Part shown: piece after piece, positions 40,748 to 56,818 of the stretch | How positions within the stretch are numbered: position 1 is the first letter of the stretch | Layout: every line of letters starts with the position of its first letter | Source: Bacillota bacterium | GTDB lineage: Bacteria; Bacillota; Clostridia; Christensenellales; Pumilibacteraceae | Reading direction: 5' to 3' | Length of the DNA: 64,000 bases | Assembly (NCBI GenBank): GCA_009780135.1 | Contig: WRAP01000002.1 | Coordinates: forward strand, 5,840 to 69,839 | Position numbers and translations under genes: made by a program | The notes under the pieces: model-generated | Database searches by the model: none | What the model was told of the DNA's origin: nothing | The model's input: only the letters and a program-made list of their open reading frames with translations

Positions 40748-40762
40748 TATAGGAAAACAACT

Positions 40763-40785
40763 TATGAAAAAATATGCACTATTAT
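40763..40785 (+). repeat. attL core, the left copy of a 23-bp direct repeat
   Basis: TATGAAAAAATATGCACTATTAT is identical to 56796-56818. This copy encodes only MKKYALL followed by a stop, so it is a 7-codon stub of purH. Confidence 0.85.
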
Positions 40786-40862
40786 GATGTTTTTAATCAC
40801 TAGATATAGTATTTTCACAGGCATTTTTGACGCTTTTACCACTATATATGGATGCTAAAATG

Positions 40863-40883
40863 ATTTAGTCACAATTTAGTCAC
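40863..40883 (+). repeat. Two direct ATTTAGTCAC copies 11 bp apart, candidate arm-type integrase sites on the left arm
   Basis: ATTTAGTCAC occurs at 40863-40872 and 40874-40883. The same decamer recurs three to four times on the right arm, at 56677-56727. Confidence 0.55.
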
Positions 40884-41989
40884 TAAATTATGTTGTCTAG
40901 CTTGTTTACTATTTCTAATTGCTTATTTGGCATCAAGTGAGCATAGCGATTTAAAGTCATTTTTACATCGGCATGCCCTAATCTTCGAGCAACTGTCAGA
41001 ATATCAGAACCCAAACTAATTAACAAGGAGGCATGTGAATGCCTTAGATCATGCACTCGGATAATTTTTATTTTGGATTTTTTGCAATATCTTCTCATAG
41101 CATCTCTTACCAGTGTTGAATTTAGTGGTTTTAGATTTCCGAATATAAAGTTGTCTTCCGAAAACAAATCAAATTCTCTGTAGTATTCTTTTAACTCACA
41201 TAAAAGAACTTGCAAATCATTCGGCATCAAAATATCTCTATTTGAATAAATGCTTTTAGGCGTAGTGATTTTATAATCGTTTTTTAACGAGTGGTGAAAT
41301 AGTGTTTTTCGAATTTTTACGATATTGCCAACTATGTCTTTCCAAGTTAAAGCAAGGGCTTCGCCTTTTCTACATCCTGTTAAAAATAAAAAACTAAAGA
41401 GCACTTTATACAAGATGCGATCTACGCTATTAATAAATGTTTTGAATTCTTCCGTAGTCCATATTTGTATATCTTTCTTTATTTCTCTGTTTTTGATCAT
41501 AGGTACTTTTTTACAAGGATTAATTTTTATTAAATTGATTCCAATAAGATAATTGAAAAAAGTATTTAATAATTTTTGAATATATTCTTTAGTAGCAAAT
41601 GCCATTTTTAGTCTTTCAACAAACTTGTAGAACTCTAATATATTGTTAGCCCCGATGGTTGGGATTTTTGAACCTTTGAAATGAGGTAAGATATATTTTG
41701 TAAACTTAATTTTTATAGTAATAAATGAACTTTCTTTCATTTCCCTCATAGCATTCATTAAATATCTATTAGCAGCATTTTCAAACAATAGTTCATCATC
41801 GCTGTTTGTCGTGATTTGTATTTCTTCTGGTTTGTAGTTTGCCACAAATGAAACATATTCTAAATTTGCTTCTTGTTTGGTATCAAAACCACTCAACCTT
41901 TTTTGCTTACGAACAGTATGACCAGGCAGGTCAAACACAACAGTCCATTTCTCTTGTCCTTTTTTCCCAATCTTTTTAAATGTTGGCAT
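40883..41989 (-). CDS. int: Tyrosine recombinase / phage-type integrase
   Basis: The catalytic region contains TGCRKGEALAL (Arg I), VHDLRHSHASLL (HxxR) and GHADVKMTLNRYAHL (His and Tyr). The start is at MPTFKKIGKK, preceded by AAGGAGG. Confidence 0.9.
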   Translation of the reverse strand: MPTFKKIGKKGQEKWTVVFDLPGHTVRKQKRLSGFDTKQEANLEYVSFVANYKPEEIQITTNSDDELLFENAANRYLMNAMREMKESSFITIKIKFTKYILPHFKGSKIPTIGANNILEFYKFVERLKMAFATKEYIQKLLNTFFNYLIGINLIKINPCKKVPMIKNREIKKDIQIWTTEEFKTFINSVDRILYKVLFSFLFLTGCRKGEALALTWKDIVGNIVKIRKTLFHHSLKNDYKITTPKSIYSNRDILMPNDLQVLLCELKEYYREFDLFSEDNFIFGNLKPLNSTLVRDAMRRYCKKSKIKIIRVHDLRHSHASLLISLGSDILTVARRLGHADVKMTLNRYAHLMPNKQLEIVNKLDNII

Positions 41990-42404
41990 TTTCAACACAT
42001 CCTCCTTTAAGGTTATGTATTGAATTAAGCCTTTCCACTGCTGCAATTTCTGCAAAAGCAAAGGATTGGATCTCATCGAAATCCCACTTCATATATTCAC
42101 AAAATGACTGCCTTGAAACCCTTCCTTTGACCGGTCTTTTAGATCCTGGTGTCTTAGCTATCTTTTCGTGTATGTTGTTTATAATTTTTGTAGCCCAAGT
42201 TTTACTACAGTCAGTCATAAAACAAATATCATTATAGGTCAGCCCGCCAGGCTTTGTTAAAATACGATACATCGCAATGTTATCGCATCCTAAGTATGGC
42301 ATTTTGCCTATGCAATTTTGTTCATTTGTCTTCACTGTAGTTAAATGGTTTTGATTTTTCGGTGTCCCAATGTGGCTACGTTTTTTAGTTAAGAAGTCCG
42401 CCAT
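41976..42404 (-). CDS. Hypothetical protein, possibly an HTH-type DNA-binding or directionality factor
   Basis: The protein is 142 aa. It overlaps the integrase start by 14 nt. The segment GGLTYNDICFMTDCSKTWATKIINNI looks HTH-like. No family is recognised with confidence. Confidence 0.35.
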   Translation of the reverse strand: MADFLTKKRSHIGTPKNQNHLTTVKTNEQNCIGKMPYLGCDNIAMYRILTKPGGLTYNDICFMTDCSKTWATKIINNIHEKIAKTPGSKRPVKGRVSRQSFCEYMKWDFDEIQSFAFAEIAAVERLNSIHNLKGGCVENANI

Positions 42405-42417
42405 AATGCGGACGCTC

Positions 42418-43311
42418 TTACTTATTTAAATTTTCTTTCCAGTTTTGGTAATCTTTTACTATTGCGAAAGCAACTTTGTTGTCTTTGCGAGAGCACTTAA
42501 AATATTTTTCAATCTTCTCTATATCACTAAGACCTGAATTATCTTGTAACACCTTAGCAAATCTTCCGTTTTTTTGCAGTCTCTTTACAGAGATGTGTTG
42601 CTTGCTGTTTTGTATAAGGAGATTGAATTTTTTTATTTGTCCCGCAATTTCTGATACTGGTATTCTATCTAGCTTTATTCGAGTTGGACGGAATAAGTAA
42701 CTAGCATCTCCAGTAAACATAATTTGTTTTCCAGATGGTAGGGCGTTGTAATAGTCTGACAAAGCCAGGCGGTTTAACACATCATGTTCCTTATTAGCAA
42801 GTAAACTAAAGTCAAAATCAAAAGAAGTTATACTCTTGTTTCTTACATCGGATTTTTGAATCTCAACCATATTGCCTTCAGACAAACCATACCAGGCTAG
42901 CATAGATATTGTCTTAATAAGAACATTGTCTGTGTTGGGATTATATCCAACAAACTTCCTCTTTACGGCAGAATCTATGAAACTCAAAAGTTCATCAATG
43001 TCTTTGAAATAAATATCAGAAGGGGAGTGTTTTAATACTACATCCCTATCTGGTATAGCAATATCTACTACATTAAACTGCTCTCCAAGAAATAATAATC
43101 TTCCTCTAATTCTATAGTATTGAGATCTTGAAACGGCATCGCTTTTTTTATTTGTAAAGAAGCTATTCAACACAAATGCATCATCTCTTAAAGAAGCTGG
43201 CAATCCACTTTCTGCTGACCGCTTAATAAGTTCAGACAACCATTCTTTAAATGCGTCAATGCTATTTTCATAACCCATTAGTTCGTATTTTTTGACTAAC
43301 TCTATGGACAT
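42418..43311 (-). CDS. Hypothetical protein with a possible degenerate tyrosine-recombinase-like region
   Basis: The protein is 297 aa. The segment KTISMLAWYGLSEGNMVEIQKSDV resembles the start of an integrase catalytic domain but lacks the Arg. No HxxR or Tyr motif is seen. Confidence 0.35.
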   Translation of the reverse strand: MSIELVKKYELMGYENSIDAFKEWLSELIKRSAESGLPASLRDDAFVLNSFFTNKKSDAVSRSQYYRIRGRLLFLGEQFNVVDIAIPDRDVVLKHSPSDIYFKDIDELLSFIDSAVKRKFVGYNPNTDNVLIKTISMLAWYGLSEGNMVEIQKSDVRNKSITSFDFDFSLLANKEHDVLNRLALSDYYNALPSGKQIMFTGDASYLFRPTRIKLDRIPVSEIAGQIKKFNLLIQNSKQHISVKRLQKNGRFAKVLQDNSGLSDIEKIEKYFKCSRKDNKVAFAIVKDYQNWKENLNK

Positions 43312-43396
43312 CTTATCACCTCGTTCAATAGCATACCTTAAATTTTATCACTTTGTCAAATGATTATATGCTATGTATATGAGGACAAAATGTGTT

Positions 43397-43708
43397 TTAC
43401 GACAAATTTTTGTATTCCTCTGGAATGTATTGAGATATGTATCGCCTTAGCTCGTCTGCTTCGGTATCTGTAGGGGTAGCAATGAACTCATGTTCGTCAC
43501 GCCCATCGCCAGAGTTGCCAAATATATTAAACCCGCCCATGTTATCAAGTTCAATAACATAAAAGTGTTTATCCATATTAAAGCTGACATAGTAGCCACT
43601 GCTAATATGCCCACTGCAAACTCCGATAATATTACCGATGTTAATCTTGGTTTCCTCCTGGAGAAGGTTGCCTTTGTGGTCAAAGTTGTTTGTATATGTT
43701 AAAATCAT
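43397..43708 (-). CDS. Hypothetical protein of 103 aa
   Basis: Called from an ORF only. I recognise no family. Confidence 0.35.
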   Translation of the reverse strand: MILTYTNNFDHKGNLLQEETKINIGNIIGVCSGHISSGYYVSFNMDKHFYVIELDNMGGFNIFGNSGDGRDEHEFIATPTDTEADELRRYISQYIPEEYKNLS

Positions 43709-43768
43709 TGTGTTTCCTCCGTTTCTTATTCTTAATCTATTTTGTTTGTTTTGTTCTCATCTATATCT

Positions 43769-44287
43769 CTATATTACTAACAAATGATTTATATGACTAT
43801 TTCCTAAAACAAATTCGCTAACTTCTATTTCCATACTATCTCCGAATTGGTCAAGGATTCCCAAATACTTAAATGTTGTTCTTATATCTGAATGATTGAG
43901 TCTGTACTGCATCGCTACTACAAAATTCATATCAATACTAGACTTAAATGTGCAAGCTGCTATACTAGCAAAACTTTTTCTCATTGTGTGAGAACCAATA
44001 TTAATTGGCAAGTTTAAGGCTTTGCCGGCATCAGAAAGAATTTGCCACCCAGTGGCTGTGTGTATTTTGCCACCCTTCTTTCTGCTGGGAAACAAATAAT
44101 CATCTGCATCAAACTGCCACTTGATTAAATCTAACAGTTTAATTACGGCGAACTTAACAGATTCTGTAATTAAAATACTATTAAGTTTATTATTTTTCTG
44201 CTCAATAATATTTAATCTAGTTCTAAAAGTGTTGTCTGGGTTTAGTAGATGTCTTATTCTTAAAGAACTTAGGTCTGAAAATCTTAT
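43769..44287 (-). pseudogene. 5'-truncated tyrosine recombinase relic
   Basis: The frame is open from the stop at 44288-44290 down to 43769. It reads ...LRIRHLLNPDNTF...IIEQKNNK...YLFPSRKKGGKIHTATGWQIL...HTMRKSFA...LNHSDIRTTFKYLG, which contains Arg I, HxxR and His/Tyr. There is no N-terminal domain, and no ATG or GTG start before the TTG at 44095. Confidence 0.7.
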
Positions 44288-44333
44288 TCAAACAAACCTG
44301 ATATGGTTTAACTTAGAATCAGAAGAGATTAAA

Positions 44334-44975
44334 GTGCATCCAGTAAGTACAGGCAATAACATTACATCGTTTGTTGGAATATTGACAAGTACACATTTAT
44401 GGTACACGGAGACAGGATGGCCTGGTACTGGAGGTATATTTAGAATGTCTATAACAACAGGTGATTTAGAGCCTGTTACATTCACAAATCGTACCGCAGG
44501 TTCACCTATAGTTCTAAATAATAATCATATATATAGTGCAACTACTGGAACGCTTAATATAGGTAGATTAAATATTAATACATTAGAGACAGAAGTTTTT
44601 GCACAAGCTGTCGGTGTAAATAATAATGTATATGCTTCGCTAGACAATCATGTAATATATATGGCAAGCAGTAATGCTACTAGGTGTGACCTGTTTAATG
44701 TTCACACTGGACAGTGGATAAGGGCTGACTTGACTGGCGGAGCCGGAGTCAATCCCGCTATTAGGCAATACGGTAACTTTGTATATATTATCCCGCTTTC
44801 CCAACCACGCATTTTTGTAATTGATTTAACGGGCGTACAGTCTGGGCAAGTTATACCACAAATGTTGTTTGAAAGTACATTAAGGTTTTCTAACGCTAAT
44901 GTTATAGTAAGCCCAAAATATTTGTATGTTAGAAGTTTGCCGGCAGACGGAAATTTAAACTGGAGGATTGGTTGA
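44334..44975 (+). CDS. Hypothetical protein, possibly phage tail-fibre or beta-propeller-like; start uncertain
   Basis: The track ORF begins at 44121, but its first ~55 codons overlap the integrase relic on the other strand. A GTG at 44334 is the first plausible start downstream of the relic. The sequence is rich in N, T, G and V, with repeated beta-like segments. Confidence 0.4.
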   Translation: MHPVSTGNNITSFVGILTSTHLWYTETGWPGTGGIFRMSITTGDLEPVTFTNRTAGSPIVLNNNHIYSATTGTLNIGRLNINTLETEVFAQAVGVNNNVYASLDNHVIYMASSNATRCDLFNVHTGQWIRADLTGGAGVNPAIRQYGNFVYIIPLSQPRIFVIDLTGVQSGQVIPQMLFESTLRFSNANVIVSPKYLYVRSLPADGNLNWRIG

Positions 44976-44976
44976 T

Positions 44977-45435
44977 ATGAAAATATCTATATTGTTTGAT
45001 GATAATAATATGCCGAGTGCTTGGCATGAAGTTATAGGCGAAACTACTTTTAATGAAGAAACTCAGGTGTTGATAAGAGAACATCTAGCAGAATATGATT
45101 TTACTGTGAATATAGATGATAAAGAGATAAATCATTTCTTTGGTAGTGGTTTAGATTATATGGACTATAGTCTTGTTGATGGCGAGTTAGTATACGATAA
45201 AACTCAAGCAAGGTCTAAAAGAACTCTACGGAGAGAGGATTATAACTACCGTATTTCTTTATTACAAGATTGGTTTAATTGGTATATGAATCAAGTGTCT
45301 CAAGCCACAACTGATGAAGCTTTGGGTATAGAGTGGGATGGAGCTACGGATAGCTTCGGTAATAATTATAAGACGCTTCTTGAGTTAAGGAAGCAAGCAA
45401 AAGAATTTCAGTTAGAGCTGAGAAAGATTAGATGA
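44977..45435 (+). CDS. Hypothetical protein, possibly a phage-derived remnant
   Basis: A GGAGG sequence lies 10 nt upstream of the ATG. The gene begins 1 nt after the upstream stop. The protein is 152 aa. Its C-terminal helix LELRKQAKEFQLELRKI resembles small phage tail-associated proteins, but only weakly. Confidence 0.4.
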   Translation: MKISILFDDNNMPSAWHEVIGETTFNEETQVLIREHLAEYDFTVNIDDKEINHFFGSGLDYMDYSLVDGELVYDKTQARSKRTLRREDYNYRISLLQDWFNWYMNQVSQATTDEALGIEWDGATDSFGNNYKTLLELRKQAKEFQLELRKIR

Positions 45436-45443
45436 TTTTTAAT

Positions 45444-45492
45444 AAAAAAATAGCCCCGTGTGGATTTTATTTCCACACGGGGCTATTTTTTT
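45444..45492 (+). terminator. Strong rho-independent, potentially bidirectional terminator
   Basis: AAAAAAA-TAGCCCCGTGTGGA-TTTTATT-TCCACACGGGGCTA-TTTTTTT is a perfect 14-bp stem. Confidence 0.85.
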
Positions 45493-45532
45493 AATCTTTT
45501 TATTCATAATATAGATTAGTTATAGAATTGTT

Positions 45533-45777
45533 ATGACATATGCAACACTTATAAATATGAAAAAGAAAAACAAATTACTAACTATAGTAACTATGACAAT
45601 ATTGTTGCTGTTTTTTGTAGCGGTAACTCCTCCTAGTGCTATGGTAGGGATAATTGATTCTAGTATAGAAGGGCTACATGGAACTCATGTTGCAGGTATA
45701 ATAGATATTGAGATGGTACTTCTCATGCTGCGCCTCATGTTGTAGGTTTTGTAGCTGTGTTCCAAAGTTATATCTAA
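45533..45777 (+). pseudogene. Collapsed subtilisin-like (S8) serine protease relic
   Basis: A signal peptide (MKKKNKLLTIVTMTILLLFFVAV) is followed by VGIIDSS (Asp-motif-like) and HGTHVAGII (His motif). After a frame change, GTSHAAPHVVGFVAV (Ser motif) follows. All of this fits within ~80 codons. Confidence 0.6.
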
Positions 45778-45855
45778 ATAGTCAGCATTGTAGCATTAAG
45801 CTAACGCAAAACATATAACTATAAAGGGTTGTCCGTAATTTATTATAAATAAACT

Positions 45856-46121: not shown

Positions 46122-46529
46122 ATGAACTCTATGACGGCTGAAGCGGTATCTCGCTTCTATTGTAAGATGAAAATCTTTTCGAATTCTGTATCTCGTGGAA
46201 CGAGGAAGATCTCTAAATTTGCATCAAAGCATTATCTGAAGTGCAAATGGTCTAACATAAGTGCGATCAAAATGCAGTGCATTTTATATGAGACAGAAAA
46301 AATTCACAAAGAAACATTAGCAAAATGTGTAGCCAATGGTTATTTAGTAATCTCCGATAAGGGTGTAGACATTACTAGTAAAGGAATAGGTGAGTTTGAG
46401 ACATATATATCTAAACAAATGAAGGAATCTAATGCTAAACTTGTTGCCACTATAAAAATAGTTACTACCGTTGTGATTATGGCAACGGGTATAGTTGCAG
46501 TTATTATACAAATTCTTGGTTTAATTTGA
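46122..46529 (+). CDS. Tail-anchored membrane protein with a winged-helix-like domain (module gene A)
   Basis: AAAGGAGAAAG is the RBS. The protein is 135 aa. The segment ETLAKCVANGYLVISDKGVDITSKGIGEFE resembles a wHTH wing. A single C-terminal TM segment (IKIVTTVVIMATGIVAVIIQILGLI) ends the protein. Confidence 0.55.
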   Translation: MNSMTAEAVSRFYCKMKIFSNSVSRGTRKISKFASKHYLKCKWSNISAIKMQCILYETEKIHKETLAKCVANGYLVISDKGVDITSKGIGEFETYISKQMKESNAKLVATIKIVTTVVIMATGIVAVIIQILGLI

Positions 46530-46625
46530 TTTGGTTGCAGTTATTTATTAATTTTTAATATAATAGTTGATTAATTGATAGATGTATGTTAAAATATTTG
46601 CATTCATGCTTTGGAGGATTCTAAA

Positions 46626-47210
46626 ATGAGTAGCAGACTTGAGATACAATACATTGATAAAATTATGGTTCTTGGAGCTATAAGAGTTTACTATAGTCAC
46701 TATCGTGCCTATAGTTTAAGTTCAGAACTTGAGTTGATTGGCGAGGCAAGTGAGCAAGAATTAAACGCAGCGCATGAAAGAATAAGGTTAAGAGAATTAG
46801 ATGAAAACAAGATTGCTAAAGAAATAAATGATATAACTAAAACAAGAACGAAAGACGAAGCAGAAGAGGAGATTTTAAATAAAAAAAGAAGAATTTTTGT
46901 ATTGGCGATCAAAGATATTATACATAGACATATTCCAAAATCCAAAGATATACCAGATGCAAATAAAATAAATGCGATAATAGGTGAGTTTCTTTGTTTG
47001 GGCTATATTGAAATAACTGAGTTTAATACATTTTGTTTCAAACTAACTTCGTTGGGCTATGATCATATTGAAAAGTGTGAAAAAGAAATTTTTGAAAAAG
47101 ATGAGCGTCTCAAAAAAATAAAAATTATATTACTTTCAACTATATTACCATTCGTAGGCGTTGTTATAGCTATAGCTACACCTATCATAATACAAATGAT
47201 TTCATGTTAA
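46626..47210 (+). CDS. Tail-anchored membrane protein with a winged-helix-like domain (module gene B, an architectural paralogue of A)
   Basis: A GGAGG sequence lies upstream of ATG 46626. The protein is 194 aa. The segment IIGEFLCLGYIEITEFNTFCFKLTSLGYDHIE is followed by a helix and a C-terminal TM segment (IKIILLSTILPFVGVVIAIATPIIIQMISC). Confidence 0.55.
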   Translation: MSSRLEIQYIDKIMVLGAIRVYYSHYRAYSLSSELELIGEASEQELNAAHERIRLRELDENKIAKEINDITKTRTKDEAEEEILNKKRRIFVLAIKDIIHRHIPKSKDIPDANKINAIIGEFLCLGYIEITEFNTFCFKLTSLGYDHIEKCEKEIFEKDERLKKIKIILLSTILPFVGVVIAIATPIIIQMISC

Positions 47211-47560: not shown

Positions 47561-49069
47561 GTGTTAAAGCTTTTCATCGGTTCAACAGTAGAGGCACTTA
47601 AATACGCAGAAGCCTTGCAGTCAATTCTTGTGCATGATTTTGAGGTAACGATTTGGAATCAAGGTGTGTTTACTCCAGGTTATTCTAATCTCGAAAGTTT
47701 AGTGAGTGCAATTTATGGATTTGATTGTGCTATTTTTTTCTTCACATGCGATGATGTTGTTGCTAAACGAGACAACATACAAAACTCTGTAAGAGATAAT
47801 ATTTTATTTGAATATGGGCTGTTTATGGGTGCACTGGGAAGAGACAGAGTATGGTTCGCTTATGATTTGAATGATGATGTGTCAAACTTGCCCACTGATA
47901 TAGCAGGAGTATGTCCTATGCCTTTTCATTCACATAATAAAAATATTTCTAGCGCGGTTGGTGTTATAGCGACAAATATAAAGCAGAGAGCAGCTTCGTT
48001 TTCTATCAATATTAAAGAGTTCGAAAAGTTAGAAAATGATAAAGATTATAAGAAGTTTATTGAAAGAAAAAATGAATTTTTATTTTATATTAAAAAATTC
48101 ATATCCAAACCAAAGAAAAATGTATTGCTTAATGATTCATTAAAAGATGAAATATATTTTGCAATAGCAGTAGATGTAGATAAGTTTGAAGCCATCAACA
48201 GAATGTACGGAGTCAATACTGGTGATGCAATAATAACTGAGTTAAAAAAGATCTTTAACGAGAGGATGAGATTTTTAAAATGCACCGATATTTTGACGCA
48301 ATGTTTTATTGAATATCATATTGATTTGTTGGACAATGATGAGTTTTTTATAATTTTAAAATTTAATATATCTCAAGAGCCAAAAATAGCTTCATATCGA
48401 ATAGCAGAAAATACATATGAACGCTCAATGACTTTGACCGAAGATTATAATAGGCTTTTAGCTCAACTTAAATCCAATACAAATGAAGATATATGTGAAA
48501 AACCTACAACAAAACATTTAAAGCGCAACTGGGAAGCTCATGGCATATTAGAAGAAATGAATGCTTTTTTGTGCAATGTCATAAATAAGGTCGTCAATAT
48601 AAAAGATGGCGAAATAAAAGATTCAGTACAACACCTAAAAGATTTACTAGAAAAAGCAATGTGTTCTGCTGTGCCTGAGTTGATTGATAAAACTAAAAGC
48701 TATGAAACTTTTTTATTTCATAGTTTAGAATCTATTTATAATCAACGAACTCAAGAGTTATTTGATCTAGTAAAGTCTGTGGCTGACGATTTGATTGGTT
48801 CAGTAGCAAAGTATGACTGGGATCAATATGCAAAAGATTTATATGTAACTTGCTCTAGTGGAATAGCATTAAAAAATGATGATGAGCCCGTAGAGAAATG
48901 GTTATCACGCTCGTTACATGGTGTTAAAATTGCAAAAAAAAATGGAGGAAACCAAACAGAGAGAGCTCCTGTTGAACTTGCATACAACCAGGTTTACACT
49001 TTGGAAAACCATAGTAGTGATTCTAGCTATGTAAGTAAGAGGTTTGTAAGAAACAAAATGAGATTATAA
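47561..49069 (+). CDS. Fusion protein with an N-terminal TIR-like domain (PF10137/COG4271 type) and a C-terminal divergent GGDEF/palm-cyclase-like domain (module gene C)
   Basis: An AGGAG sequence lies 8 nt upstream of GTG 47561. The TIR-like block reads LFIGSTVEALKYAEALQSIL...FDCAIFFFTCDDVV...VRDNILFEYGLFMGALGRDRVWFAY...LPTDIAGV. The GGDEF-like blocks read AIAVDVDKFEAINRMYGVNTGD, LLDNDEFFIIL and VTCSSGIA...HGVKIAKKNGGN. Confidence 0.7.
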   Translation: MLKLFIGSTVEALKYAEALQSILVHDFEVTIWNQGVFTPGYSNLESLVSAIYGFDCAIFFFTCDDVVAKRDNIQNSVRDNILFEYGLFMGALGRDRVWFAYDLNDDVSNLPTDIAGVCPMPFHSHNKNISSAVGVIATNIKQRAASFSINIKEFEKLENDKDYKKFIERKNEFLFYIKKFISKPKKNVLLNDSLKDEIYFAIAVDVDKFEAINRMYGVNTGDAIITELKKIFNERMRFLKCTDILTQCFIEYHIDLLDNDEFFIILKFNISQEPKIASYRIAENTYERSMTLTEDYNRLLAQLKSNTNEDICEKPTTKHLKRNWEAHGILEEMNAFLCNVINKVVNIKDGEIKDSVQHLKDLLEKAMCSAVPELIDKTKSYETFLFHSLESIYNQRTQELFDLVKSVADDLIGSVAKYDWDQYAKDLYVTCSSGIALKNDDEPVEKWLSRSLHGVKIAKKNGGNQTERAPVELAYNQVYTLENHSSDSSYVSKRFVRNKMRL

Positions 49070-49215: not shown

Positions 49216-49243
49216 TTGACAAATGATTTCTCTGTGTTATAAT
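49216..49243 (+). promoter_or_regulatory. Promoter of the Rhs toxin gene
   Basis: TTGACA at 49216-49221 is followed by a 16-nt spacer and an extended -10, TGTTATAAT, at 49235-49243. It lies ~50 nt upstream of the ATG. Confidence 0.6.
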
Positions 49244-49291
49244 GCTTCTATAAACTCCGCAGAAAGTTGCGGTATAAAAGGAGAAAATATT

Positions 49292-52200
49292 ATGAATACA
49301 AAAGGAAAATCTATTAAGACACAAAGAAGTGTTTATAGGTCTATTATCGCAATACTGATGTCTGCTATTTTGGCATTTGTATTTATGAGCGATACAACTA
49401 GAGCGGTTATTGCTTTAGATCGTGATATAGTAGAAGACGAATTTTTTTGTCGAATATCACATCAAGCACAATTATACCGAGATGAAGTATCTCGTAGACT
49501 AGAAGCAGAGAGTGAAGAAGATCCACATATATTGTTAGAAGATATATCAAGGCGCACTAGCTTTGAACGATATTTCTTTATGAGTGATGGTTCAGTTATG
49601 AGAGAGGAATTTATCGAGCCTATTCACTTTGCTTACGATGAGTATATTTATAGACAAATAGATAACTCCTTTGTAGCAAGATCTGACGAGCGCGGGAACA
49701 GCACGATTGTTAATAGAAGCAATGCTTTTCAGACAGAATTTGCAGTAAATCCAAATGATAATTTGCCACTAGCAGCTATAACAAGCGGTGAACATAGTTT
49801 GCAATTTTTCTCTGCTACTCAAGGCTATACATTAGAAAGACAAAGAACACAAGAAGTGCAAAGAGAAAGTCAATTAGAAAACTCTGAAAGGCAGTCAGAT
49901 AACTTTGTAACCAACGAAATAACTGAAAGGCGAGAATTATCTAATGTCGAAGTAGAGTCTAAATTTATGACAAGCGATGAAGTAACGCTTGATTACGATT
50001 ACAGCAGAGAACGCCGCACTAGTAGTGTTGTAACAGGTAATTTAACAAGTGAACTAAGTTTTTCTAATATAGAACCAAATATAGATAGACGCTTTGAAGT
50101 AACTCAATTTGGAATGAGTGAAAATATAATTATTAACGAAAGGCAAAGGCGATTACAATTTGCATTTGAGTTTGTAATTAGAGCCGAAGGATTGGAGTTA
50201 GTAAATTCTAATAATAGGATTTTAGCATATGACTATATGATGGAAAGAATATTCTATATTCCTACGCCATATATGTTTGATGCTTATGGATATTACAATA
50301 CTTCCGATGTTGTTTATAATTTAGAATATCTTGGCGACTACGAATATAGATTTATAATTACAGCTTGTTCTATGTGGATTAACGCTACCGATAGAGCTTT
50401 TCCAGTACAGATTAGTTCTATGAATGTGCAACCATTGAATGGAATTGTAAATTTTCCTAATTCAAATTTTACTATTATACGAATAAGCGAATTTGATGAC
50501 AGGCGAACAGGTATAGATAATCATGATATTCGTCATAGCACTTTTTATAATAGGCGACTGATGGTTCAATATAGTGCCGGCTTAGCCGTTAGAGGTAATT
50601 TACTGTTTGACATTCACAATACATCATCTAGTAATCGGCAGACAGTTATAGGCAATAGATTACAATACGGTGTATTAAACAATATAAGATTTCACCAACT
50701 ACCACAATCTCCTAACATTTTTAACAGAGAGTTGTTAGGAAATCAAACGGCATTCAATCAACAAATAGAATTCGTTGGAAGCTATATGGCGGTAGTCTTT
50801 AGGCTTGCGGGTTGGCTTACTAGTGCTAGAGATGTAACCTTTAGAAACTTTAGAATAGTGACCTCTAGTCCAACTAAAACAGGTCAACCTATAAATTTTA
50901 GTGGTGATGATTTTAATGTATCTATTGATTCATTGACTCTTGATCAGCGAGCGATAGTACCTTACTTTATACAGCAAGCACCTATCATGCCAATAGAAGT
51001 ATATGGTGTATTTAATCCAGGTTTTACCGCAAGAAGAAATAGTGTTATTGCAAATAATGTGCCTATCACACAGCTTAGACCCCCGCAAATTACTTCCTAT
51101 GGCTTAGACATGAAGTTAAACTTTGAACAATATATGTTGCGACAGTACCTTGGCGGAAGAGTACATTATATTTACATAGATGCGATGGGTGATTTTCATT
51201 TATTTATGAGATTGCGTGATAAGTTTCCTTCATTATCTTACCGATGTGACAATCTATTTAGGTCGAGTACAACAGATTTAATATACGACGGAGCTTTGCT
51301 ACTTGGTAATGAATTGAATAAAGCAATGTTTAGATTTGATGCACGTGGACGATTAGATAGAATTAGAAATAATAATGGGCAAGCAATTTATATATCTCAT
51401 GACGCTAGTGGTAGAATATCTTCAATTCGAAATTATTTTATTATATCCAATTTTTCATTTATGCCTGATAATAGATTGTTTTCTAGCGTAAATCTTAGAT
51501 ACCATCCTACACATGGTCGATTAAACAATATCGGCTTTTCAGGATTAGAAACTTTAGAAACAACAATTGCTTATCATTCATGCGGAAGAGTGCACAATAT
51601 AAACATACCAAGCAGTGCAAAAAATATCAGCTTAACTTATTCGTTTGGTAACTTGTATCATATTACCAACTCCGCAAATGCTAGAAACGGGTTTCTTTTT
51701 ACTAGAAGCAATAATCTGTGGTGGATTAGAGAGCATCATGAAAACTCTAACTCAAAAATGCGAATTGGTAGAGATGAACCAAATAATAGAACTTTTATAT
51801 ACTCTTATGGGCGTCATAATAATAATTTCCAATATACATTACTATATAGGACTTATCATCGTTTTGATGATAGTAATAGACTTGTAGATATACAAACTCG
51901 AAATGAAGGGCTAGATAACATAAACGCATTAACAAGAGAACATATTACAAAAGAGTTTAGAACATCATCGTATACTTATAACGGTATTTCCACCGGAGGT
52001 AGAACCACAAACATAACACGCCATAATTACCGTATGTCTAATGTAAGTGATACGGGTTCTTGGCAGTATATAAGAACATATACTAATACATCGGGTGCTC
52101 TTATACGAAAAATTGTAAGACAAGATATTATATGCAACTTTACTGGAAACATTTTAGAGCAAACGACTCAGAACATAGATGGCTTTAGAAGAATTACCCA

Positions 52201-55015
52201 AAACATACATCGTGATTTAAGAGAAACTATTACTACAACCTATGTGTATGATAGTAATTCTGCTAGACGCCATATATTAACTCGTATAGATACAGCACAA
52301 ACAAATGTTAGTTTCAATCGAGTTCATCGGACATATTTTAGAGACCATAATAAATGGGGATTTCCTGAAGATATTAGACACGGTGAAGTGGTGGGAGCAG
52401 GTTTTAGAGAGCGAGTTTCTGAAAGTTTTGATTTCGACAACTATGGCAATCTTATAAGCCACACAGACACACATCGTGTAACTCATACCTTTGAGTATGA
52501 TTGGCTTGGAGACACTGGTGATGTTGGTATCAGCACTACAGGTACTCATATGGGTATTATAAATGCCTTTACAGGCAATGAAAAAATAGTATTTAATTAT
52601 GATGACTATATGATAACAAGTATAAGCACTCAAGATATGTCCGGTACAATTAGATATACGCATAACATTAACCAAAGTTTTTCTCAAAACAGCAATAGCG
52701 ATATTTTTACTATGGGGTCTGTAACTCATAGAATAAATTATTCCAATGGTAAAGTAGCAAGTATAGCAAGGAATAATGTAAATATGCTTGAATTTGACTA
52801 TACTCCTAAAGGCGATATAGTCGGAATATCATTTGCAAACAACCAAAGAATGGCATATAGCTATAATGCATTTGGGCAAATGACACAAAAAAGAGCCTAT
52901 ACTAACGGAATGGAAACGCAAAGATTTAACTATGGCTATCATAGAAATGGAGAGCTAGGATGGGTAGATTTTACTAGTTATGGTAGAGGTTGGAGCAATA
53001 TTATTAGAAGCTTTAGAAGAATCAGAGAGAATGTAACTGGAAGAGAAAATGTAAGCGAAGTGGATACTATTGGATTAAGCAAAAGATTTAGAGTAACAAC
53101 TGAGATCAATCCCAACAATGATAGTATTGGCTCTACAAGTGGTTCGTTTGTTCCCGTTGCTATAAATTATCAATTTGATAATAGTGCATCCCGTAGATTT
53201 TCTATTTCAAAAGCTAGACAGGCATTTAATAATTCGATTCTTGTAACTGATGCTCTCTTTACAGCAAATTATACTTTTGATACTTTTGGCAGATTAGATA
53301 CTCATAGAAGGCATGTAACGACAGGTAGTTCACAAGTTGGACAAATAAGAAGTGTCCATTATTTTAATGATCGTGTTGATAGAGTTGTAGATGCTCTTCA
53401 TATAAACACCGTTAGTCAAGGAAGTTTTACTACAACTCTGTGGTACGATACAGCCGGCAACATAAGTCATGCGTTTGGAGGCAGGGTAGATAGGAATATA
53501 GCGTTTGGATATAGGCACGGTAGATTAGAGTGGGAAGAATGGGATTGTGCGGCAACAAACACCCGCAGAAGAATTTATTATAAATACGATGCTAATAATA
53601 ATTTAGCCAGAACCTATGAATATAGGATTATTAGCACCACTCAAAGAACTAGAGTTAACGCCCAGCGATTTAACCATAGTGGCGATAGACTTACTGGCAT
53701 TACAAATACTCATAGAACATATTTAAACAAGACAATCCCTCTCAATTCCTATGATGATTTGGGTAATCCTCTAGTATATGGTAATTGGGATATGGCATGG
53801 GTTAGAGGACGACTACTACACACTATGCGCCCTAGAAACGGTCTGGGGAATAGCTGGGAGTTCAGATATGACGAAAATGGTATTAGGTATCGTAAGATAG
53901 AAAGAAATGCTACTAATACTTTAACACAAAATACAACTGATTTCTTTGTGAATGGCACTCAGATTATAGCAGAACACAGTGGCAGATATGGCTTTATTGA
54001 GTATTTTTACGATACTCAAGGTGTATCTGGAATGCGTGTAAGTGGAGTTTTGTCTAGTAGTAATCCTAATGCAAATCAAATAAACAATCGTAATTTTCTT
54101 TTTTTGCGTGATGTGTTTGGTAATGTTGTAGAGATTAGACGGGATTGTGGACTTCTTGTAGCTAGGTACAGCTACGATGCGTGGGGCAATACTAGCATTG
54201 TATACAATAGATACAACATCGGTCATATGAATCCGTTTAGATATAGGGGTAAGTATATGGATAGAGGCACGGGGCTTTACTATTTACAGACTAGATTTTA
54301 TGACCCTGCCATTAGGCGATTTATAAATGCCGATAATTTTATGCTTGTGCCGCATTTGGCACAGAGTATGGAGCTAAATATGCACGCTTATGCTAGGAAT
54401 AATCCTGTTATGTTTACAGACCCTACCGGGCAGTTGGCTATTTCGACATTATTTTTAATTGGAATGGGCGTAGGATTTGCTCTTGGATTCGGTGGAAGTG
54501 TTGTTGTTCAGGGGCTAACAAAAGGATGGGATAGTATATGTTTTTGGACGGCAGGAATAGCTGGCGTGACAGGTGCAATAGGTGGCGGGCTTATGATGAC
54601 AGGACTAGGGGCTGGATGGATGGCACTAGCAATGGCAGGGTTAAGCGGAGTTAATAATGTAGGAAGTCAGCTTCTTTCAGATAAAGATTTTAATGTATGG
54701 CAATTGTTATTTTCCATGGCAGCAGGTGGTGCAGTTGGATGGCTAGGTGGCAGTGGGGTCTTTGCAAAAAAACCGGTTATACAGGCAGCCAACAAACTAG
54801 CCAACCAAAAGAAAAATACTGCAAATGTAATGGCAAATTTAGCTATGAAGAAAAAGCCAGGAACTGCTGCGGCCAAAACAAATTGGTGGCTAAATCTTAG
54901 AACAACACAATTTAATAACGCAGTAACAAGTGCTTTTGGACAGAGTGTGCTACAAAAAACAGGAGCTTCAGCATTTGGATGGGGAGCCAACATAGCGTTT
55001 GGTCATTTAGCATAG
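49292..55015 (+). CDS. Rhs/YD-repeat polymorphic toxin with an N-terminal signal/anchor sequence and a glycine-zipper membrane C-terminal domain
   Basis: The RBS AAAGGAG precedes the start MNTKGKSIK. A hydrophobic signal segment (IIAILMSAILAFVFM) follows. Many YD-type repeats are present (YxYDxxGN/R-like: YSYNAFGQM, WYDTAGNI, YKYDANNNL, YSYDAWGN). The Rhs core end reads PFRYRGKYMDRGTGLYYLQTRFYDPAIRRFINAD...NNPVMFTDPTGQ. Confidence 0.9.
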   Translation: MNTKGKSIKTQRSVYRSIIAILMSAILAFVFMSDTTRAVIALDRDIVEDEFFCRISHQAQLYRDEVSRRLEAESEEDPHILLEDISRRTSFERYFFMSDGSVMREEFIEPIHFAYDEYIYRQIDNSFVARSDERGNSTIVNRSNAFQTEFAVNPNDNLPLAAITSGEHSLQFFSATQGYTLERQRTQEVQRESQLENSERQSDNFVTNEITERRELSNVEVESKFMTSDEVTLDYDYSRERRTSSVVTGNLTSELSFSNIEPNIDRRFEVTQFGMSENIIINERQRRLQFAFEFVIRAEGLELVNSNNRILAYDYMMERIFYIPTPYMFDAYGYYNTSDVVYNLEYLGDYEYRFIITACSMWINATDRAFPVQISSMNVQPLNGIVNFPNSNFTIIRISEFDDRRTGIDNHDIRHSTFYNRRLMVQYSAGLAVRGNLLFDIHNTSSSNRQTVIGNRLQYGVLNNIRFHQLPQSPNIFNRELLGNQTAFNQQIEFVGSYMAVVFRLAGWLTSARDVTFRNFRIVTSSPTKTGQPINFSGDDFNVSIDSLTLDQRAIVPYFIQQAPIMPIEVYGVFNPGFTARRNSVIANNVPITQLRPPQITSYGLDMKLNFEQYMLRQYLGGRVHYIYIDAMGDFHLFMRLRDKFPSLSYRCDNLFRSSTTDLIYDGALLLGNELNKAMFRFDARGRLDRIRNNNGQAIYISHDASGRISSIRNYFIISNFSFMPDNRLFSSVNLRYHPTHGRLNNIGFSGLETLETTIAYHSCGRVHNINIPSSAKNISLTYSFGNLYHITNSANARNGFLFTRSNNLWWIREHHENSNSKMRIGRDEPNNRTFIYSYGRHNNNFQYTLLYRTYHRFDDSNRLVDIQTRNEGLDNINALTREHITKEFRTSSYTYNGISTGGRTTNITRHNYRMSNVSDTGSWQYIRTYTNTSGALIRKIVRQDIICNFTGNILEQTTQNIDGFRRITQNIHRDLRETITTTYVYDSNSARRHILTRIDTAQTNVSFNRVHRTYFRDHNKWGFPEDIRHGEVVGAGFRERVSESFDFDNYGNLISHTDTHRVTHTFEYDWLGDTGDVGISTTGTHMGIINAFTGNEKIVFNYDDYMITSISTQDMSGTIRYTHNINQSFSQNSNSDIFTMGSVTHRINYSNGKVASIARNNVNMLEFDYTPKGDIVGISFANNQRMAYSYNAFGQMTQKRAYTNGMETQRFNYGYHRNGELGWVDFTSYGRGWSNIIRSFRRIRENVTGRENVSEVDTIGLSKRFRVTTEINPNNDSIGSTSGSFVPVAINYQFDNSASRRFSISKARQAFNNSILVTDALFTANYTFDTFGRLDTHRRHVTTGSSQVGQIRSVHYFNDRVDRVVDALHINTVSQGSFTTTLWYDTAGNISHAFGGRVDRNIAFGYRHGRLEWEEWDCAATNTRRRIYYKYDANNNLARTYEYRIISTTQRTRVNAQRFNHSGDRLTGITNTHRTYLNKTIPLNSYDDLGNPLVYGNWDMAWVRGRLLHTMRPRNGLGNSWEFRYDENGIRYRKIERNATNTLTQNTTDFFVNGTQIIAEHSGRYGFIEYFYDTQGVSGMRVSGVLSSSNPNANQINNRNFLFLRDVFGNVVEIRRDCGLLVARYSYDAWGNTSIVYNRYNIGHMNPFRYRGKYMDRGTGLYYLQTRFYDPAIRRFINADNFMLVPHLAQSMELNMHAYARNNPVMFTDPTGQLAISTLFLIGMGVGFALGFGGSVVVQGLTKGWDSICFWTAGIAGVTGAIGGGLMMTGLGAGWMALAMAGLSGVNNVGSQLLSDKDFNVWQLLFSMAAGGAVGWLGGSGVFAKKPVIQAANKLANQKKNTANVMANLAMKKKPGTAAAKTNWWLNLRTTQFNNAVTSAFGQSVLQKTGASAFGWGANIAFGHLA

Positions 55016-55027
55016 GGGGGTATATTG

Positions 55028-55585
55028 ATGAGTATGATAACAACATATACGCTTTTGTCAATGAGTAACCAAATGCCTGCCACCATGACATCAATAATTA
55101 TCACCTCTGTTATTGCTGCAATAATAATGATTGGCTTAATTATATTTTGCATTGTGCAACATAAACGGGTGAGGAGTTCAACATATCCATCATTTCGACA
55201 TAATTTTGAAAGCTATCTTATGGTAGCTACTACAGCGATGTTTCTAGGTTTTGTTATATTGTTTTTTTGCCTAGCTTATGCAGATAATGAAACTGCAACA
55301 TGGTTATCTTTTGTACTTTTTGTTTTAGTGGCTGTAATATCGATATTAGTGACTATAGGAACAAATCTTTTTCGCTTCACATTCTATGAAACCGAGATTC
55401 ACTGGCGTACCTACTTTGGAAAAAAAAGAATCTACACATACAAAGATATTGCAGATTGTTTTAGTGGATATAAACGCGCATTTCTGTTTATCCAAATAGA
55501 GTTTAAGGACGGCAAGAAAAAAGATTTGCGAGCAACAAAAAGACTTGTCGCAGCACTAGAGGATAAAAAAATTAAAATTAGATAA
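55028..55585 (+). CDS. Putative cognate immunity protein, a polytopic membrane protein
   Basis: The gene starts 10 nt after the rhs stop and is preceded by AGGGGGG. Three TM segments are followed by a small cytosolic domain (WRTYFGKKRIYTYKDIADCFSGYKRAFLFIQIEFKDGKKK). Confidence 0.6.
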   Translation: MSMITTYTLLSMSNQMPATMTSIIITSVIAAIIMIGLIIFCIVQHKRVRSSTYPSFRHNFESYLMVATTAMFLGFVILFFCLAYADNETATWLSFVLFVLVAVISILVTIGTNLFRFTFYETEIHWRTYFGKKRIYTYKDIADCFSGYKRAFLFIQIEFKDGKKKDLRATKRLVAALEDKKIKIR

Positions 55586-55660
55586 TCATAAAAATTATAA
55601 CCTAACTCACCACCCTAGCGGCGTTAAAAGATACATCTCATAAGAGTGGGAGGTAAAATT

Positions 55661-56227
55661 ATGAATACACCATTGTATATTAATGATAACATTTCTTCGA
55701 TAACTCCTGTGATAATTATACTTATAGTGGTAGGGAGTATAATCACATTAGGACTTATTCTTCTTATTGTTTATCAATCTAAATCATGCAGAAATAAAGA
55801 AAAACCATCTTTTATGCATTTTGGTTCTGTTATTGTTGCAATAATTACACAGGCTGGACTTCAGGCACCTGCAATTGCTGTTGTTTATTTTCTGGATATA
55901 ACTAATGAGCTTCCATCATTTTTTGTTTTTTTTGTTTTTTGCACTTATGTCAATAGTGGCAACATTAGGTGCTTTTAGCACAAATATATACAAAGTTACT
56001 TTTTAGAAGAGGAAATACATTGGAGAGGTCATTTGGGCAAAAAACGAGTTTACACATACAAAGACATAACCGATTGTTTTTATGGTTATAAAAGCGGAGT
56101 ATTGTTTGTACAAATAGAGTTTGCCGGAAAGAAAAAGGTGGAGTTAATGGCTGCTAAAAGACTTATTGCTGTGTTAAGAGAAAAAAAGATAAAGAAAATA
56201 AACTTACCAACATTTGCTAAACACTAA
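55661..56227 (+). pseudogene. Decayed paralogue of the immunity-like gene
   Basis: Track ORFs 55646-55978 and 56033-56227 together cover one homologue of the 55028 gene. Compare GKKRVYTYKDITDCFYGYKSGVLFVQIEFAGKKK with GKKRIYTYKDIADCFSGYKRAFLFIQIEFKDGKKK. The paralogue is broken by a frame change in a T-run near 55920-55945. A TAG also replaces the Tyr of FTFYETEIHWR. Confidence 0.7.
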
Positions 56228-56297
56228 GTAAAATGAAAGGAGCCGTAAAGTGTCGTTTGATATAGTATATATTTTGTAATATTGTCTAACATTATAT

Positions 56298-56537
56298 TTA
56301 TGACTCAATATCATGGCAGATTTCTTGGAACAGAAGAATGTCATTTTTGCTGTAGCGGTTTAGAATTTCTTTTTGTTTTTGTTGGCGATGTTTTGCATTG
56401 AAGATATCGCACATAAGCGCCCATTTAAGAGCATTAAATTCGACGGCTTCATTAAAGATATCTCGAATATCTTTTTTGAAGGCAAAGCCTTCTAGTTTTT
56501 TTATTAGTTGTTTTTGTATATTTGTCATAAATTTCAC
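56298..56537 (-). CDS. Hypothetical protein of 79 aa, possibly an N-terminal fragment
   Basis: Called from an ORF only. It is the last gene before the right-arm repeats. I recognise no family. Confidence 0.3.
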   Translation of the reverse strand: MKFMTNIQKQLIKKLEGFAFKKDIRDIFNEAVEFNALKWALMCDIFNAKHRQQKQKEILNRYSKNDILLFQEICHDIES

Positions 56538-56676
56538 AATATAAAAGCATCGTTAGATGGTTTTTATGTATCAACTAACTAAGTAAATTGGTTTCGATTT
56601 TTTTATTTGATAATAAATTATAAATACTGTATTATATATTTGTGGTTACAAAAAAAATATAATAAAACTACAGTAG

Positions 56677-56790
56677 ATTTAGTCACAGATTTAGTCACAT
56701 AATTCATTTAGTCACGCTAAAAGTCACTTAAAAAGTGTTCTAAAGTGTGCCAAAGTGAACTAAAGTGAACTAAAATGTACTAAAAAACAC
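56677..56790 (+). repeat. Right-arm array of short direct repeats, with ATTTAGTCAC-type copies followed by six phased 10-bp units
   Basis: ATTTAGTCAC occurs at 56677, 56689 and 56706, with a variant TAAAAGTCAC at 56718. Contiguous 10-mers then follow: AAAAGTGTTC, TAAAGTGTGC, CAAAGTGAAC, TAAAGTGAAC, TAAAATGTAC and TAAAAAACAC (56731-56790). The array ends 5 nt before the att core. Confidence 0.8.
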
Positions 56791-56795
56791 AATTA

Positions 56796-56818
56796 TATGA
56801 AAAAATATGCACTATTAT
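56796..56818 (+). repeat. attR core, the right copy of the 23-bp direct repeat
   Basis: This copy is identical to 40763-40785. It contains the start codon and first seven codons of the intact purH. Confidence 0.85.

What the first reader, a model, noticed from the sequence alone, without database searches (positions are those of the whole stretch)
40763..56818. A 16-kb integrative island is inserted into the first codons of purH and splits the purMN-purHD operon
Seen:
- The 23-bp sequence TATGAAAAAATATGCACTATTAT occurs exactly twice, at 40763-40785 and 56796-56818.
- The right copy begins the intact purH (MKKYALLSVSNKTG...).
- The left copy, 16 nt after the purN stop, encodes only MKKYALL followed by TGA.
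- A complete tyrosine integrase (40883-41989) lies ~100 bp inside the left repeat.
- Everything between the repeats is accessory or decayed. Removing 40786-56818 would restore a seamless purN-purH junction.

Established knowledge: site-specific integration with duplication of a short core that regenerates the target gene's end is typical of tyrosine-recombinase elements. The usual target is the 3' end of a tRNA or protein gene. Targeting the 5' end and start codon of a biosynthetic gene is less common.

Inference: the element is, or was, a mobile island that uses purH as attB.
Basis: partly seen in the sequence, partly recalled or inferred. Interest (0 to 1): 0.62.

Follow-up and report, generated by a model that had tools for sequence, protein, structure and literature searches.

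The report
Prophage-derived island inserted at purH start
A 16-kb remnant of a temperate phage, carrying an Rhs toxin and a TIR-type defence gene, was inserted by its integrase exactly at the start codon of purH in a termite-gut bacterium; other strains of the species still have the empty site, so this is a well-documented but ordinary integrative island with an unusual target.

Summary
The 23-bp repeat occurs only twice, in the window and in the whole 1.58-Mb genome. It flanks 16,010 bp that separate purN from purH. These two genes are adjacent in 26 of 29 relatives.

The empty site exists. A contig from another termite-gut sample reads purN, one copy of the core, then purH, exactly as predicted. 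A third allele has the island decayed by an insertion sequence, which destroys the integrase gene.

The integrase module matches, gene for gene, modules next to phage replication genes in uncultured contigs. These are int, a small overlapping ORF, a 297-aa ORF and a second recombinase that is truncated here. The island's rebuilt attP aligns with their int-adjacent intergenic regions, including ATTTAGTCAC-type arm repeats on both arms. The core of two relatives resembles a tRNA 3' end. Only this element has the purH start.

All phage replication and structural genes are missing. The cargo is a TIR-GGDEF fusion, a 1930-aa Rhs toxin and immunity genes.

I found no sign of current excision. Integration leaves purH intact but removes its native upstream region.

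Verdict: this is a new member of a known kind. The closest known analogue is SpyCI at the mutL 5' end. Interest is moderate to low.

The parts
40148..40747 (+). purN, the left chromosomal flank
   Evidence: PF00551 at E 1.4e-48. It is directly followed by purH in 26 of 29 relatives.
40763..40785 (+). attL core, the left copy of the 23-bp repeat. It keeps purH's native upstream region and encodes the stub MKKYALL* (40764-40787).
40786..40882 (.). Int-proximal arm (P' arm). It holds two ATTTAGTCAC arm-type repeats (40863-40872, 40874-40883) and a degenerate copy of the CCACTATATATAGTGG hairpin seen in the relatives.
40883..41989 (-). Tyrosine integrase, 368 aa, with an intact catalytic set
   Evidence: PF00589. 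phrog_1 at E 9.6e-66. R, K, H, R, H and Y are invariant. The best homologues are only 45-55% identical.
41976..42404 (-). Small ORF that overlaps the int start by 14 nt. The conserved part is about 107 aa. It is a candidate excision or regulatory factor.
   Evidence: 58-67% identical to the gene in the same position in L043-L048. The family has 8 members. The AF2 model has pLDDT 79 but no significant fold match, only weak wHTH-like hits at E>0.5.
42418..43311 (-). 297-aa ORF of unknown function, part of the conserved int module
   Evidence: 23-31% identical to the syntenic 281-313-aa genes in L043-L048. The structure model is poor, pLDDT 50.
43772..44287 (-). 5'-truncated second tyrosine recombinase (Int2). 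Only residues about 106-275 remain. This marks the left deletion scar of the phage-derived module.
   Evidence: 52-57% identical to the 275-302-aa recombinases of L043-L048. phrog_216 at E 1.3e-20.
44229..45435 (+). Two cargo ORFs of unknown function (248 and 152-155 aa). A perfect 22-nt inverted repeat follows at 45443-45493.
   Evidence: No family hits. Inverted repeat I4.
46122..47210 (+). Two small ORFs upstream of the TIR gene (135 and 194 aa), unknown function
47561..49069 (+). Fusion protein of a CAP12/Pycsar-type TIR domain with a GGDEF-like domain. It is candidate defence cargo.
   Evidence: PF10137 at E 2.5e-26 and PF00990 at E 3.4e-9. PADLOC TIR effector at E 6e-36. Absent from 118 other genomes of the family.
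49223..55015 (+). Rhs/YD-repeat polymorphic toxin, 1930 aa, with a Gly-rich hydrophobic C-terminal domain after DPTGQ
   Evidence: TIGR03696 Rhs-associated core at residues 1651-1737, E 1e-19.
55025..55585 (+). Membrane protein of the DUF6560 type, the presumed immunity gene
   Evidence: PF20197 at E 6.2e-8
55646..56227 (+). Broken paralogue of the immunity gene, split into two frames
   Evidence: Direct repeat D1 at 74% identity. ORFs of 110 aa and 64 aa.
56298..56537 (-). 79-aa N-terminal fragment of a phage-type gene of about 250 aa. This is the right deletion scar.
   Evidence: phrog_5696 positions 17-86 of 250, E 2.2e-5
56544..56795 (.). Int-distal arm (P arm). It holds three ATTTAGTCAC repeats (56677, 56689, 56706) and a run of TAAAGTGAAC-like decamers up to 5 nt from the core. 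A promoter-like site at 56607-56635 faces purH.
56796..56818 (+). attR core, the right copy of the 23-bp repeat. It supplies the start codon and codons 1-7 of purH.
56797..58341 (+). purH, intact. It is followed by purD at 58452-59747.

Best explanation
The 16,010 bp between the two 23-bp cores are the defective remnant of a temperate phage. The phage integrated by tyrosine-integrase site-specific recombination. The recombination was between an element attP and a chromosomal attB that spans the base before the purH ATG and the first 22 nt of the gene.

The element carries its own copy of these 23 bp. As a result, integration regenerates a full purH at attR and leaves a 7-codon stub behind purN at attL.

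What is shown:
- The exact unique repeat.
- The natural empty site.
- The ancestral purN-purH adjacency.
- An intact integrase.
- Arm-type repeats on both arms.
- Homology of the whole int module and of the rebuilt attP to phage-like contigs. In two of these contigs the core resembles a tRNA 3' end.

What is inferred:
- The phage lost its interior, with scars in Int2 at about 44287 and in the 79-aa fragment at 56298-56537.
- It now carries 12 kb of cargo: a TIR-GGDEF fusion and an Rhs toxin with immunity genes.
- The element may still be able to excise, because int, the small overlapping ORF and both arms are intact. It cannot replicate, package or transfer by itself.
- purHD expression in the occupied state must come from read-through or from a promoter in the P arm. 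The native upstream region, with its weak AGGA at -14, has been moved 16 kb away.
For: - **Repeat.** It is unique in the window and in the genome.
- **Empty site.** Contig L034 (Logan, 1012 nt) matches the window with 0 mismatches over 1005 nt of purM/purN sequence (39781-40785). It then continues core+CAGTTAG into purH.
- **Flanks.** purM-purN-purH-purD is contiguous in 26 of 29 relatives.
- **Integrase.** The catalytic residues are intact.
- **Arm repeats.** All five exact ATTTAGTCAC copies in 64 kb lie within 120 nt of the island ends, in one orientation.
- **Module synteny.** The order int, o142, o297, Int2 is shared with L043-L048. In L045-L048 the module sits next to Sak/ERF, PDDEXK, DnaB, DnaG and (in L047 and L048) PolIII-alpha genes.
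- **attP.** The model attP aligns with the int-downstream intergenic regions of L045-L048.
- **Relatives' cores.** The L047 core matches the 3' end of tRNA-Leu(GAG) at 20 of 21 positions. The L045 core matches tRNA-Ala(GGC) at 17 of 21.
- **Composition.** The island is atypical.
- **Distribution.** The integrase (at E<=1e-40) and the TIR-GGDEF gene are absent from 118 other genomes of the family.
- **Third allele.** An IS-like element replaces 41043-46208 and 56310-56543. This shows ongoing decay.
Against: - No excised circle or attB was seen in the two runs that hold the full island. Only contigs are available there, and contigs drop rare variants.
- No close relative of the element (above 55% integrase identity) was found anywhere. 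No relative sits at purH. The specificity of the integrase for this core therefore rests on a single element.
- The 12-kb cargo has no detected homology to the parts of the phage contigs that I held. The cargo could have been part of the original element, and the element could have been a small satellite from the start.
- The o79 fragment is not detectably similar to the genes that follow attP in L045 and L048.
Confidence: 0.82

Rival explanations
1. The element is not a remnant. It is a complete small mobilisable island or phage satellite (PICI/SpyCI-like) that uses a lysogeny module of phage type. It excises and is packaged or transferred with the help of a phage of the same family.
For: - Its 16-kb size, the integrase at one end and the lack of any structural genes fit a satellite.
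- int, the overlapping small ORF and both att arms are intact.
- A low-depth contig with a variant of the same arm repeats exists in the same sample. A related element is therefore around.
Against: - No primase/replicase, terminase small subunit, capsid-redirecting gene or repressor was detected.
- Int2 is cut at residue about 106, and a phage-type gene is cut to 79 aa at the other end. These look like deletion scars.
- No second copy or helper of this family is present in the MAG.
- The island was found only in one species, in four runs.
Confidence: 0.12
2. The island acts as a reversible switch on purine biosynthesis. When integrated it uncouples purHD from the purMN promoter and ribosome-binding context. 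When excised it restores the operon, as SpyCIM1 does for mutL.
For: - The insertion sits at the 5' end of the gene and splits an operon.
- The native upstream region, with AGGA at -14, is lost at attR. No Shine-Dalgarno-like sequence replaces it, while nearly all relatives have GGAG-type sites before purH.
- Empty and occupied alleles coexist in the species.
- The precedent is documented in PMC4689407 and PMC3430984.
Against: - No attB or attP was found in the samples with the intact island.
- The empty and occupied alleles seen together in one sample involve an island whose integrase is destroyed by the IS-like element. They are therefore different strains, not a switching population.
- Only about a third of the long ORFs in this genome have a Shine-Dalgarno-like motif, so its absence need not silence purH.
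- A promoter-like site in the P arm faces purH.
- PurH does not show excess loss of conserved residues.
Confidence: 0.05
3. The junctions are assembly artefacts. A foreign 16-kb piece was misjoined to the pur genes through the shared 23-mer.
For: The genome is a metagenome-assembled genome of 27 contigs from a complex community.
Against: - Three independent assemblies cross attL, and two cross attR as well. These are Logan contigs at k=31 from two runs and a MEGAHIT contig whose name (k141_) points to k=141. Depth is even on both sides: 15.1 and 15.3 in one run, 6.9 and 7.08 in the other.
- A 23-bp repeat is shorter than either k, so it cannot cause a misjoin.
Confidence: 0.01

Closest known systems
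SpyCI, the phage-like chromosomal islands of Streptococcus pyogenes (e.g. SpyCIM1), at the 5' end of mutL (PMC4689407, PMC3430984, PMC4129442)
   Same: Both are small phage-derived islands with a tyrosine integrase. Both integrate site-specifically into the 5' end of a housekeeping gene and split an operon (mutS-mutL there, purMN-purHD here). In both, the downstream genes depend on excision or on an island promoter.
   Different: - The target gene and the host differ (a termite-gut Firmicute).
- No evidence of dynamic excision was found.
- No replication module was detected.
- The cargo here is an Rhs toxin and a TIR-type gene.
- I made no sequence comparison with SpyCI, so the likeness is one of organisation only.
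Lambda-type temperate-phage integration with arm-type sites, as in the uncultured phage contigs L045-L048
   Same: The integrase is 51-53% identical to those of L045-L048 (55% to the non-phage-context contig L043/L044). The gene order int, small ORF, ~290-aa ORF, second recombinase is shared. The attP layout is shared too: TTgGTCAC repeats on both arms, GAACTAAAATG repeats and a hairpin next to int.
   Different: - Two of these contigs carry attP cores that resemble the 3' end of a tRNA gene (Leu-GAG, and less closely Ala-GGC). This element carries the 5' end of purH.
- The relatives have phage replication genes. This element has none.
Cryptic or defective prophages that carry toxin or defence cargo
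   Same: All three show loss of lytic genes, retention of int and att, accessory cargo and further decay by an insertion sequence.
   Different: A large Rhs polymorphic toxin cassette is not typical prophage cargo. Whether it arrived with the phage or later is unknown.

Membership tests
Tyrosine-recombinase site-specific integrative element | Integrase with the catalytic R-K-H-R-H-Y set | tested here: met
   PF00589 at E 3.7e-21. R207, K245, H313, R316, H339 and Y349 are invariant among 15 sequences.
Tyrosine-recombinase site-specific integrative element | Identical core sequence as direct repeats at both ends, unique in the genome | tested here: met
   A 23-bp exact repeat with two copies only
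Tyrosine-recombinase site-specific integrative element | Empty target site with a single core copy in the same species | tested here: met
   Contig L034 equals the empty-site model
Tyrosine-recombinase site-specific integrative element | Arm-type repeats flanking the core on both arms (lambda-Int type) | tested here: met
   There are five exact ATTTAGTCAC copies, all at the ends. They are conserved in the relatives' attP regions. Binding by the integrase was not testable.
Tyrosine-recombinase site-specific integrative element | Excision products (attP circle and attB) in a population that carries the element | tested here: inconclusive
   None were seen in the contigs of runs X1 and X2. Contigs drop rare variants, and raw reads were not available.
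Intact temperate prophage | Replication, structural, packaging and lysis genes | tested here: not met
   No such family was found among the island ORFs in Pfam, NCBIfam or PHROGs
PICI / SpyCI-type phage satellite | Integrase plus master repressor, primase/replicase and packaging-interference genes | tested here: not met
   Only the integrase was detected. Divergent versions cannot be excluded.
PICI / SpyCI-type phage satellite | Induction and packaging by a helper phage | not testable with these tools
   This needs culture work.
ICE / IME | Relaxase, coupling protein, type IV secretion genes or oriT | tested here: not met
   No such Pfam or NCBIfam hits
Rhs polymorphic toxin cassette (cargo) | Rhs-associated core domain that ends in DPxG, followed by a variable C-terminal domain and a downstream immunity gene | tested here: met
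   TIGR03696 at E 1e-19, residues 1651-1737. DPTGQ and a 193-aa C-terminal domain. A DUF6560 membrane gene lies directly downstream. Immunity function was not tested.

The most novel reading that the evidence does not exclude
The island is still excision-competent and works as a reversible genetic switch on purHD, an 'active lysogeny' element on a purine-biosynthesis operon. purMN read-through runs antisense into the convergent int gene, which could couple excision to purine status.
Probability: 0.06. Interest if true: 0.7.

Novelty: new member of a known kind. Interest (0 to 1): 0.36.

Why it matters
- **A complete natural series.** The data show full, empty and IS-decayed alleles in one uncultured species. 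This series documents integrase-mediated insertion at the 5' end of a biosynthetic gene.
- **A change of target within one integrase family.** Two phage relatives carry cores that resemble tRNA 3' ends, and another relative abuts the 3' end of nifU. This element carries the purH start. That makes the family a candidate for studying how att specificity changes.
- **Cargo.** The island delivers an Rhs toxin with immunity genes and a TIR-GGDEF gene into a termite-gut Firmicute. This bears on strain competition and phage defence in that community.
- **Mechanism.** Nothing here requires a new mechanism.

Tried and rejected
- **Close relatives of the element.** One scan of genome contigs with the integrase gave a single irrelevant 39% hit. 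The metagenome-contig scan with an integrase alignment gave only relatives at or below 39-41% identity. None of the 86 loci tested had purH or purN nearby.
- **IMG/VR.** There were no exact matches to the 23-bp core or to the arm repeat pair. The small ORF has no relative there.
- **GenBank phages.** The best integrase match is 34% identical, to Clostridioides phages.
- **RNA evidence for purH expression.** No RNA run holds the stretch.
- **Excision products in X1 and X2.** None were found.
- **Function of the small ORF.** Its AF2 model is confident, but there is no significant PDB match. The 297-aa ORF model is too poor to search.
- **The 79-aa fragment.** It shows no similarity to the first genes after attP in L045 and L048.
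- **Relaxed selection on purH.** I rejected this idea. The window's PurH has 4 unique changes at near-invariant columns, within the range of 1-7 seen in relatives.
I rejected this. The second recombinase is a constant member of the module in all relatives.
- **Rfam.** No RNA family was found in the window.


Full report
**1. Observation**

The 23-mer TATGAAAAAATATGCACTATTAT lies at 40763-40785 and 56796-56818. There is no other match in the window, even with 3 mismatches, and none in 100 shuffles. It has only these two copies in the 1.58-Mb, 27-contig genome.

The flanks are as follows:
- purM: 39025/39103-40146
- purN: 40148-40747
- purH: 56797-58341
- purD: 58452-59747

The left copy keeps the native region downstream of purN and reads ATG AAA AAA TAT GCA CTA TTA TGA. 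The right copy starts the intact purH.

**2. The insertion is real and derived**

- In 26 of 29 relatives of the same genus, family or order, purM, purN, purH and purD are contiguous. The purN-purH gaps are about 10-220 nt.
- The window comes from a termite-gut metagenome.
- In runs X1 and X2, unbranched contigs cross both junctions at even depth: 15.1 and 15.3, and 6.9 and 7.08. An independent MEGAHIT contig of 182 kb has the same structure.
- A 23-bp repeat is shorter than the word size of either assembler, so it cannot cause a misjoin.

**3. The empty site exists**

In runs X3 and X4, a 1012-nt contig (L034) is identical to the window over 39781-40785. It then continues CAGTTAG, the purH sequence that follows the right core. 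Its last 60 nt match the model in which 40786-56818 is removed.

A second, more divergent empty allele is also visible. Its upstream sequence ...ATAGGAAACAAATCAA lies just before the purH ATG.

**4. A third allele shows decay**

This allele rests on three contigs:
- The ENA contig L032 is 99.85% identical over 10.9 kb of flank. It runs from purN through attL into the last 53 codons of int (up to 41042). It then enters an element that starts TGGACCCTATCC... and encodes a transposase-type HTH N-terminus (PF01527, E 2.3e-4 for a 46-aa piece).
- Contig L039 from the same assembly has the other end of that element joined to 46209-56309, followed by its first end again.
- In X3 and X4 the same end also abuts 56544 and continues through attR into purH.

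This allele has therefore lost 41043-46208 and 56310-56543 to an IS-like element. Its ends read TG...CA, so the IS3 family is my inference. The cargo is kept: it has 4 mismatches in 10,101 nt.

By accession order, the ENA assembly probably derives from the same sample as X3/X4. This is an inference. If it is right, the empty and the decayed alleles coexist there as different strains. The Logan contigs do not show that attL branch, which fits the tool's warning that contigs drop minor variants.

**5. Origin of the element**

The integrase (368 aa) has all catalytic residues. Its best homologues in 5.8 billion proteins are only 45-55% identical.

The contexts of four of them all show the same gene order:
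- PemK-type toxin
- a 275-302-aa second recombinase
- a gene of about 127 aa
- a gene of 281-313 aa, which is homologous to the window's 297-aa ORF
- a gene of about 100-110 aa, which is homologous to the small ORF overlapping int in the window
- the integrase
- about 300 nt of non-coding DNA

In L045-L048 phage replication genes follow: Sak/ERF, PDDEXK, DnaB and DnaG, and in L047 and L048 also PolIII-alpha. In L043/L044 a Cas12a-like gene follows the integrase instead.

In the window the second recombinase survives only as residues about 106-275 (44287-43772). At the other end, a 79-aa ORF is the N-terminal piece of a 250-aa phage family (phrog_5696).

I joined the right arm, the core and the left arm in silico. 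This gives an attP that aligns with the non-coding stretch after int in L045-L048. The shared features are:
- paired TTgGTCAC repeats on both arms
- GAACTAAAATG-type repeats next to the core
- a CCACTATATATAGTGG hairpin next to int

In the window, all five exact ATTTAGTCAC copies lie at 40863, 40874, 56677, 56689 and 56706.

The core differs. The L047 core equals the 3' end of tRNA-Leu(GAG) at 20 of 21 positions. The L045 core resembles tRNA-Ala(GGC) at 17 of 21. Another relative abuts the 3' end of nifU. None of the 92 loci with related integrases has purH or purN next to it.

**6. Content**

No replication, structural, lysis, conjugation or satellite-type gene was found. The cargo is:
- a CAP12-type TIR domain fused to a GGDEF-like domain
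- a 1930-aa Rhs protein
- a DUF6560 membrane protein and a broken paralogue of it
- several unknown ORFs

The island has 33.3% GC against 35.8% for the genome. That is in the lowest 0.65% of 306 same-size windows, and its tetranucleotide distance is in the top 2%.

The integrase (at E<=1e-40) and the TIR-GGDEF gene are absent from 118 other species of the family. The MAG has no second copy of the module. Only four runs hold the island.

**7. Consequences for purH**

At the empty site, purH has AGGAAAA ending 11 nt before the ATG and lies 16 nt behind purN. At attR the upstream sequence is ...AAAAAACACAATTAT, with no such motif. Nearly all relatives have GGAG-type sites there.

A crude count finds Shine-Dalgarno-like motifs before only about 35% of long ORFs in this genome, against 9% background. 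A promoter-like site (TTGATA-17-TATTAT, 56607-56635) faces purH. PurH shows no excess of changes at conserved positions. Whether purHD expression suffers is open.

**8. Comparison with known systems**

[quoted passage not shown] It splits the operon and in some strains rescues downstream genes from its own promoter (PMC4689407, PMC3430984). The present element resembles SpyCI in organisation.

Membership of a satellite family is not supported, and dynamic excision was not seen. It is a member of the broad class of lambda-type integrative elements. I found no report of purH as an attachment site in the held library.

**9. Verdict**

The finding is correct and now well supported. It is a new member of a known kind. 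Its interest lies in three things: the unusual 5' target, the change of target within the integrase family, and the three natural alleles.

Noticed in passing
window 62570-62635 (minus strand): This 65-66-nt stretch is 100% identical to the first end of the IS-like element that decays the island in other strains (TGGACCCTATCC...). It looks like a solo remnant. It lies just upstream of a 361-aa ORF (62656-63741). The other end of the element lies on contig C3 of the genome.
   Followed up: partly
window 56806-56808, 56827-56829, 56878-56880: PurH has Tyr4, Asn11 and Ser28. Of 29 relatives, 28 have Arg, 27 have Asp and 28 have Glu at these positions. Tyr4 lies inside the att core, and the empty allele has it too. 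Overall, PurH shows no excess of unusual changes.
   Followed up: partly
window 47561-49069: A TIR (CAP12/Pycsar effector type) domain is fused to a GGDEF-like domain with a long insertion. It is absent from all 118 other genomes of the family.
   Followed up: partly
window 45443-45493: A perfect 22-nt inverted repeat with A and T runs on either side looks like a two-way terminator. It lies between the unknown ORFs and the TIR module.
   Followed up: no
run X1, contig laid at window 56679-56716: A 337-nt low-depth contig carries a variant of the same arm repeats (GATTTAGTCACGCAAAAAGTGG...). A related element is therefore present in the same community.
   Followed up: no
L043/L044; L047 11450-12589: Related int modules sit next to a Cas12a-like gene, and near a reverse transcriptase and a ThiF-like gene (L043/L044). 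In L047 a TnpB/OrfB_IS605 gene lies directly after the att region. L047 and L048 also carry LAGLIDADG genes.
   Followed up: no
L130 1688-2653: A 46%-identical integrase is directly followed by another CAP12-type TIR gene. TIR effectors may be recurrent cargo next to this integrase family.
   Followed up: no
window 49851 / 54401: In X1 and X2, a 1075-nt contig at higher depth touches both places with 21-nt sides and has 39 other letters between them. It is probably another Rhs gene of the community. This is not explained.
   Followed up: no
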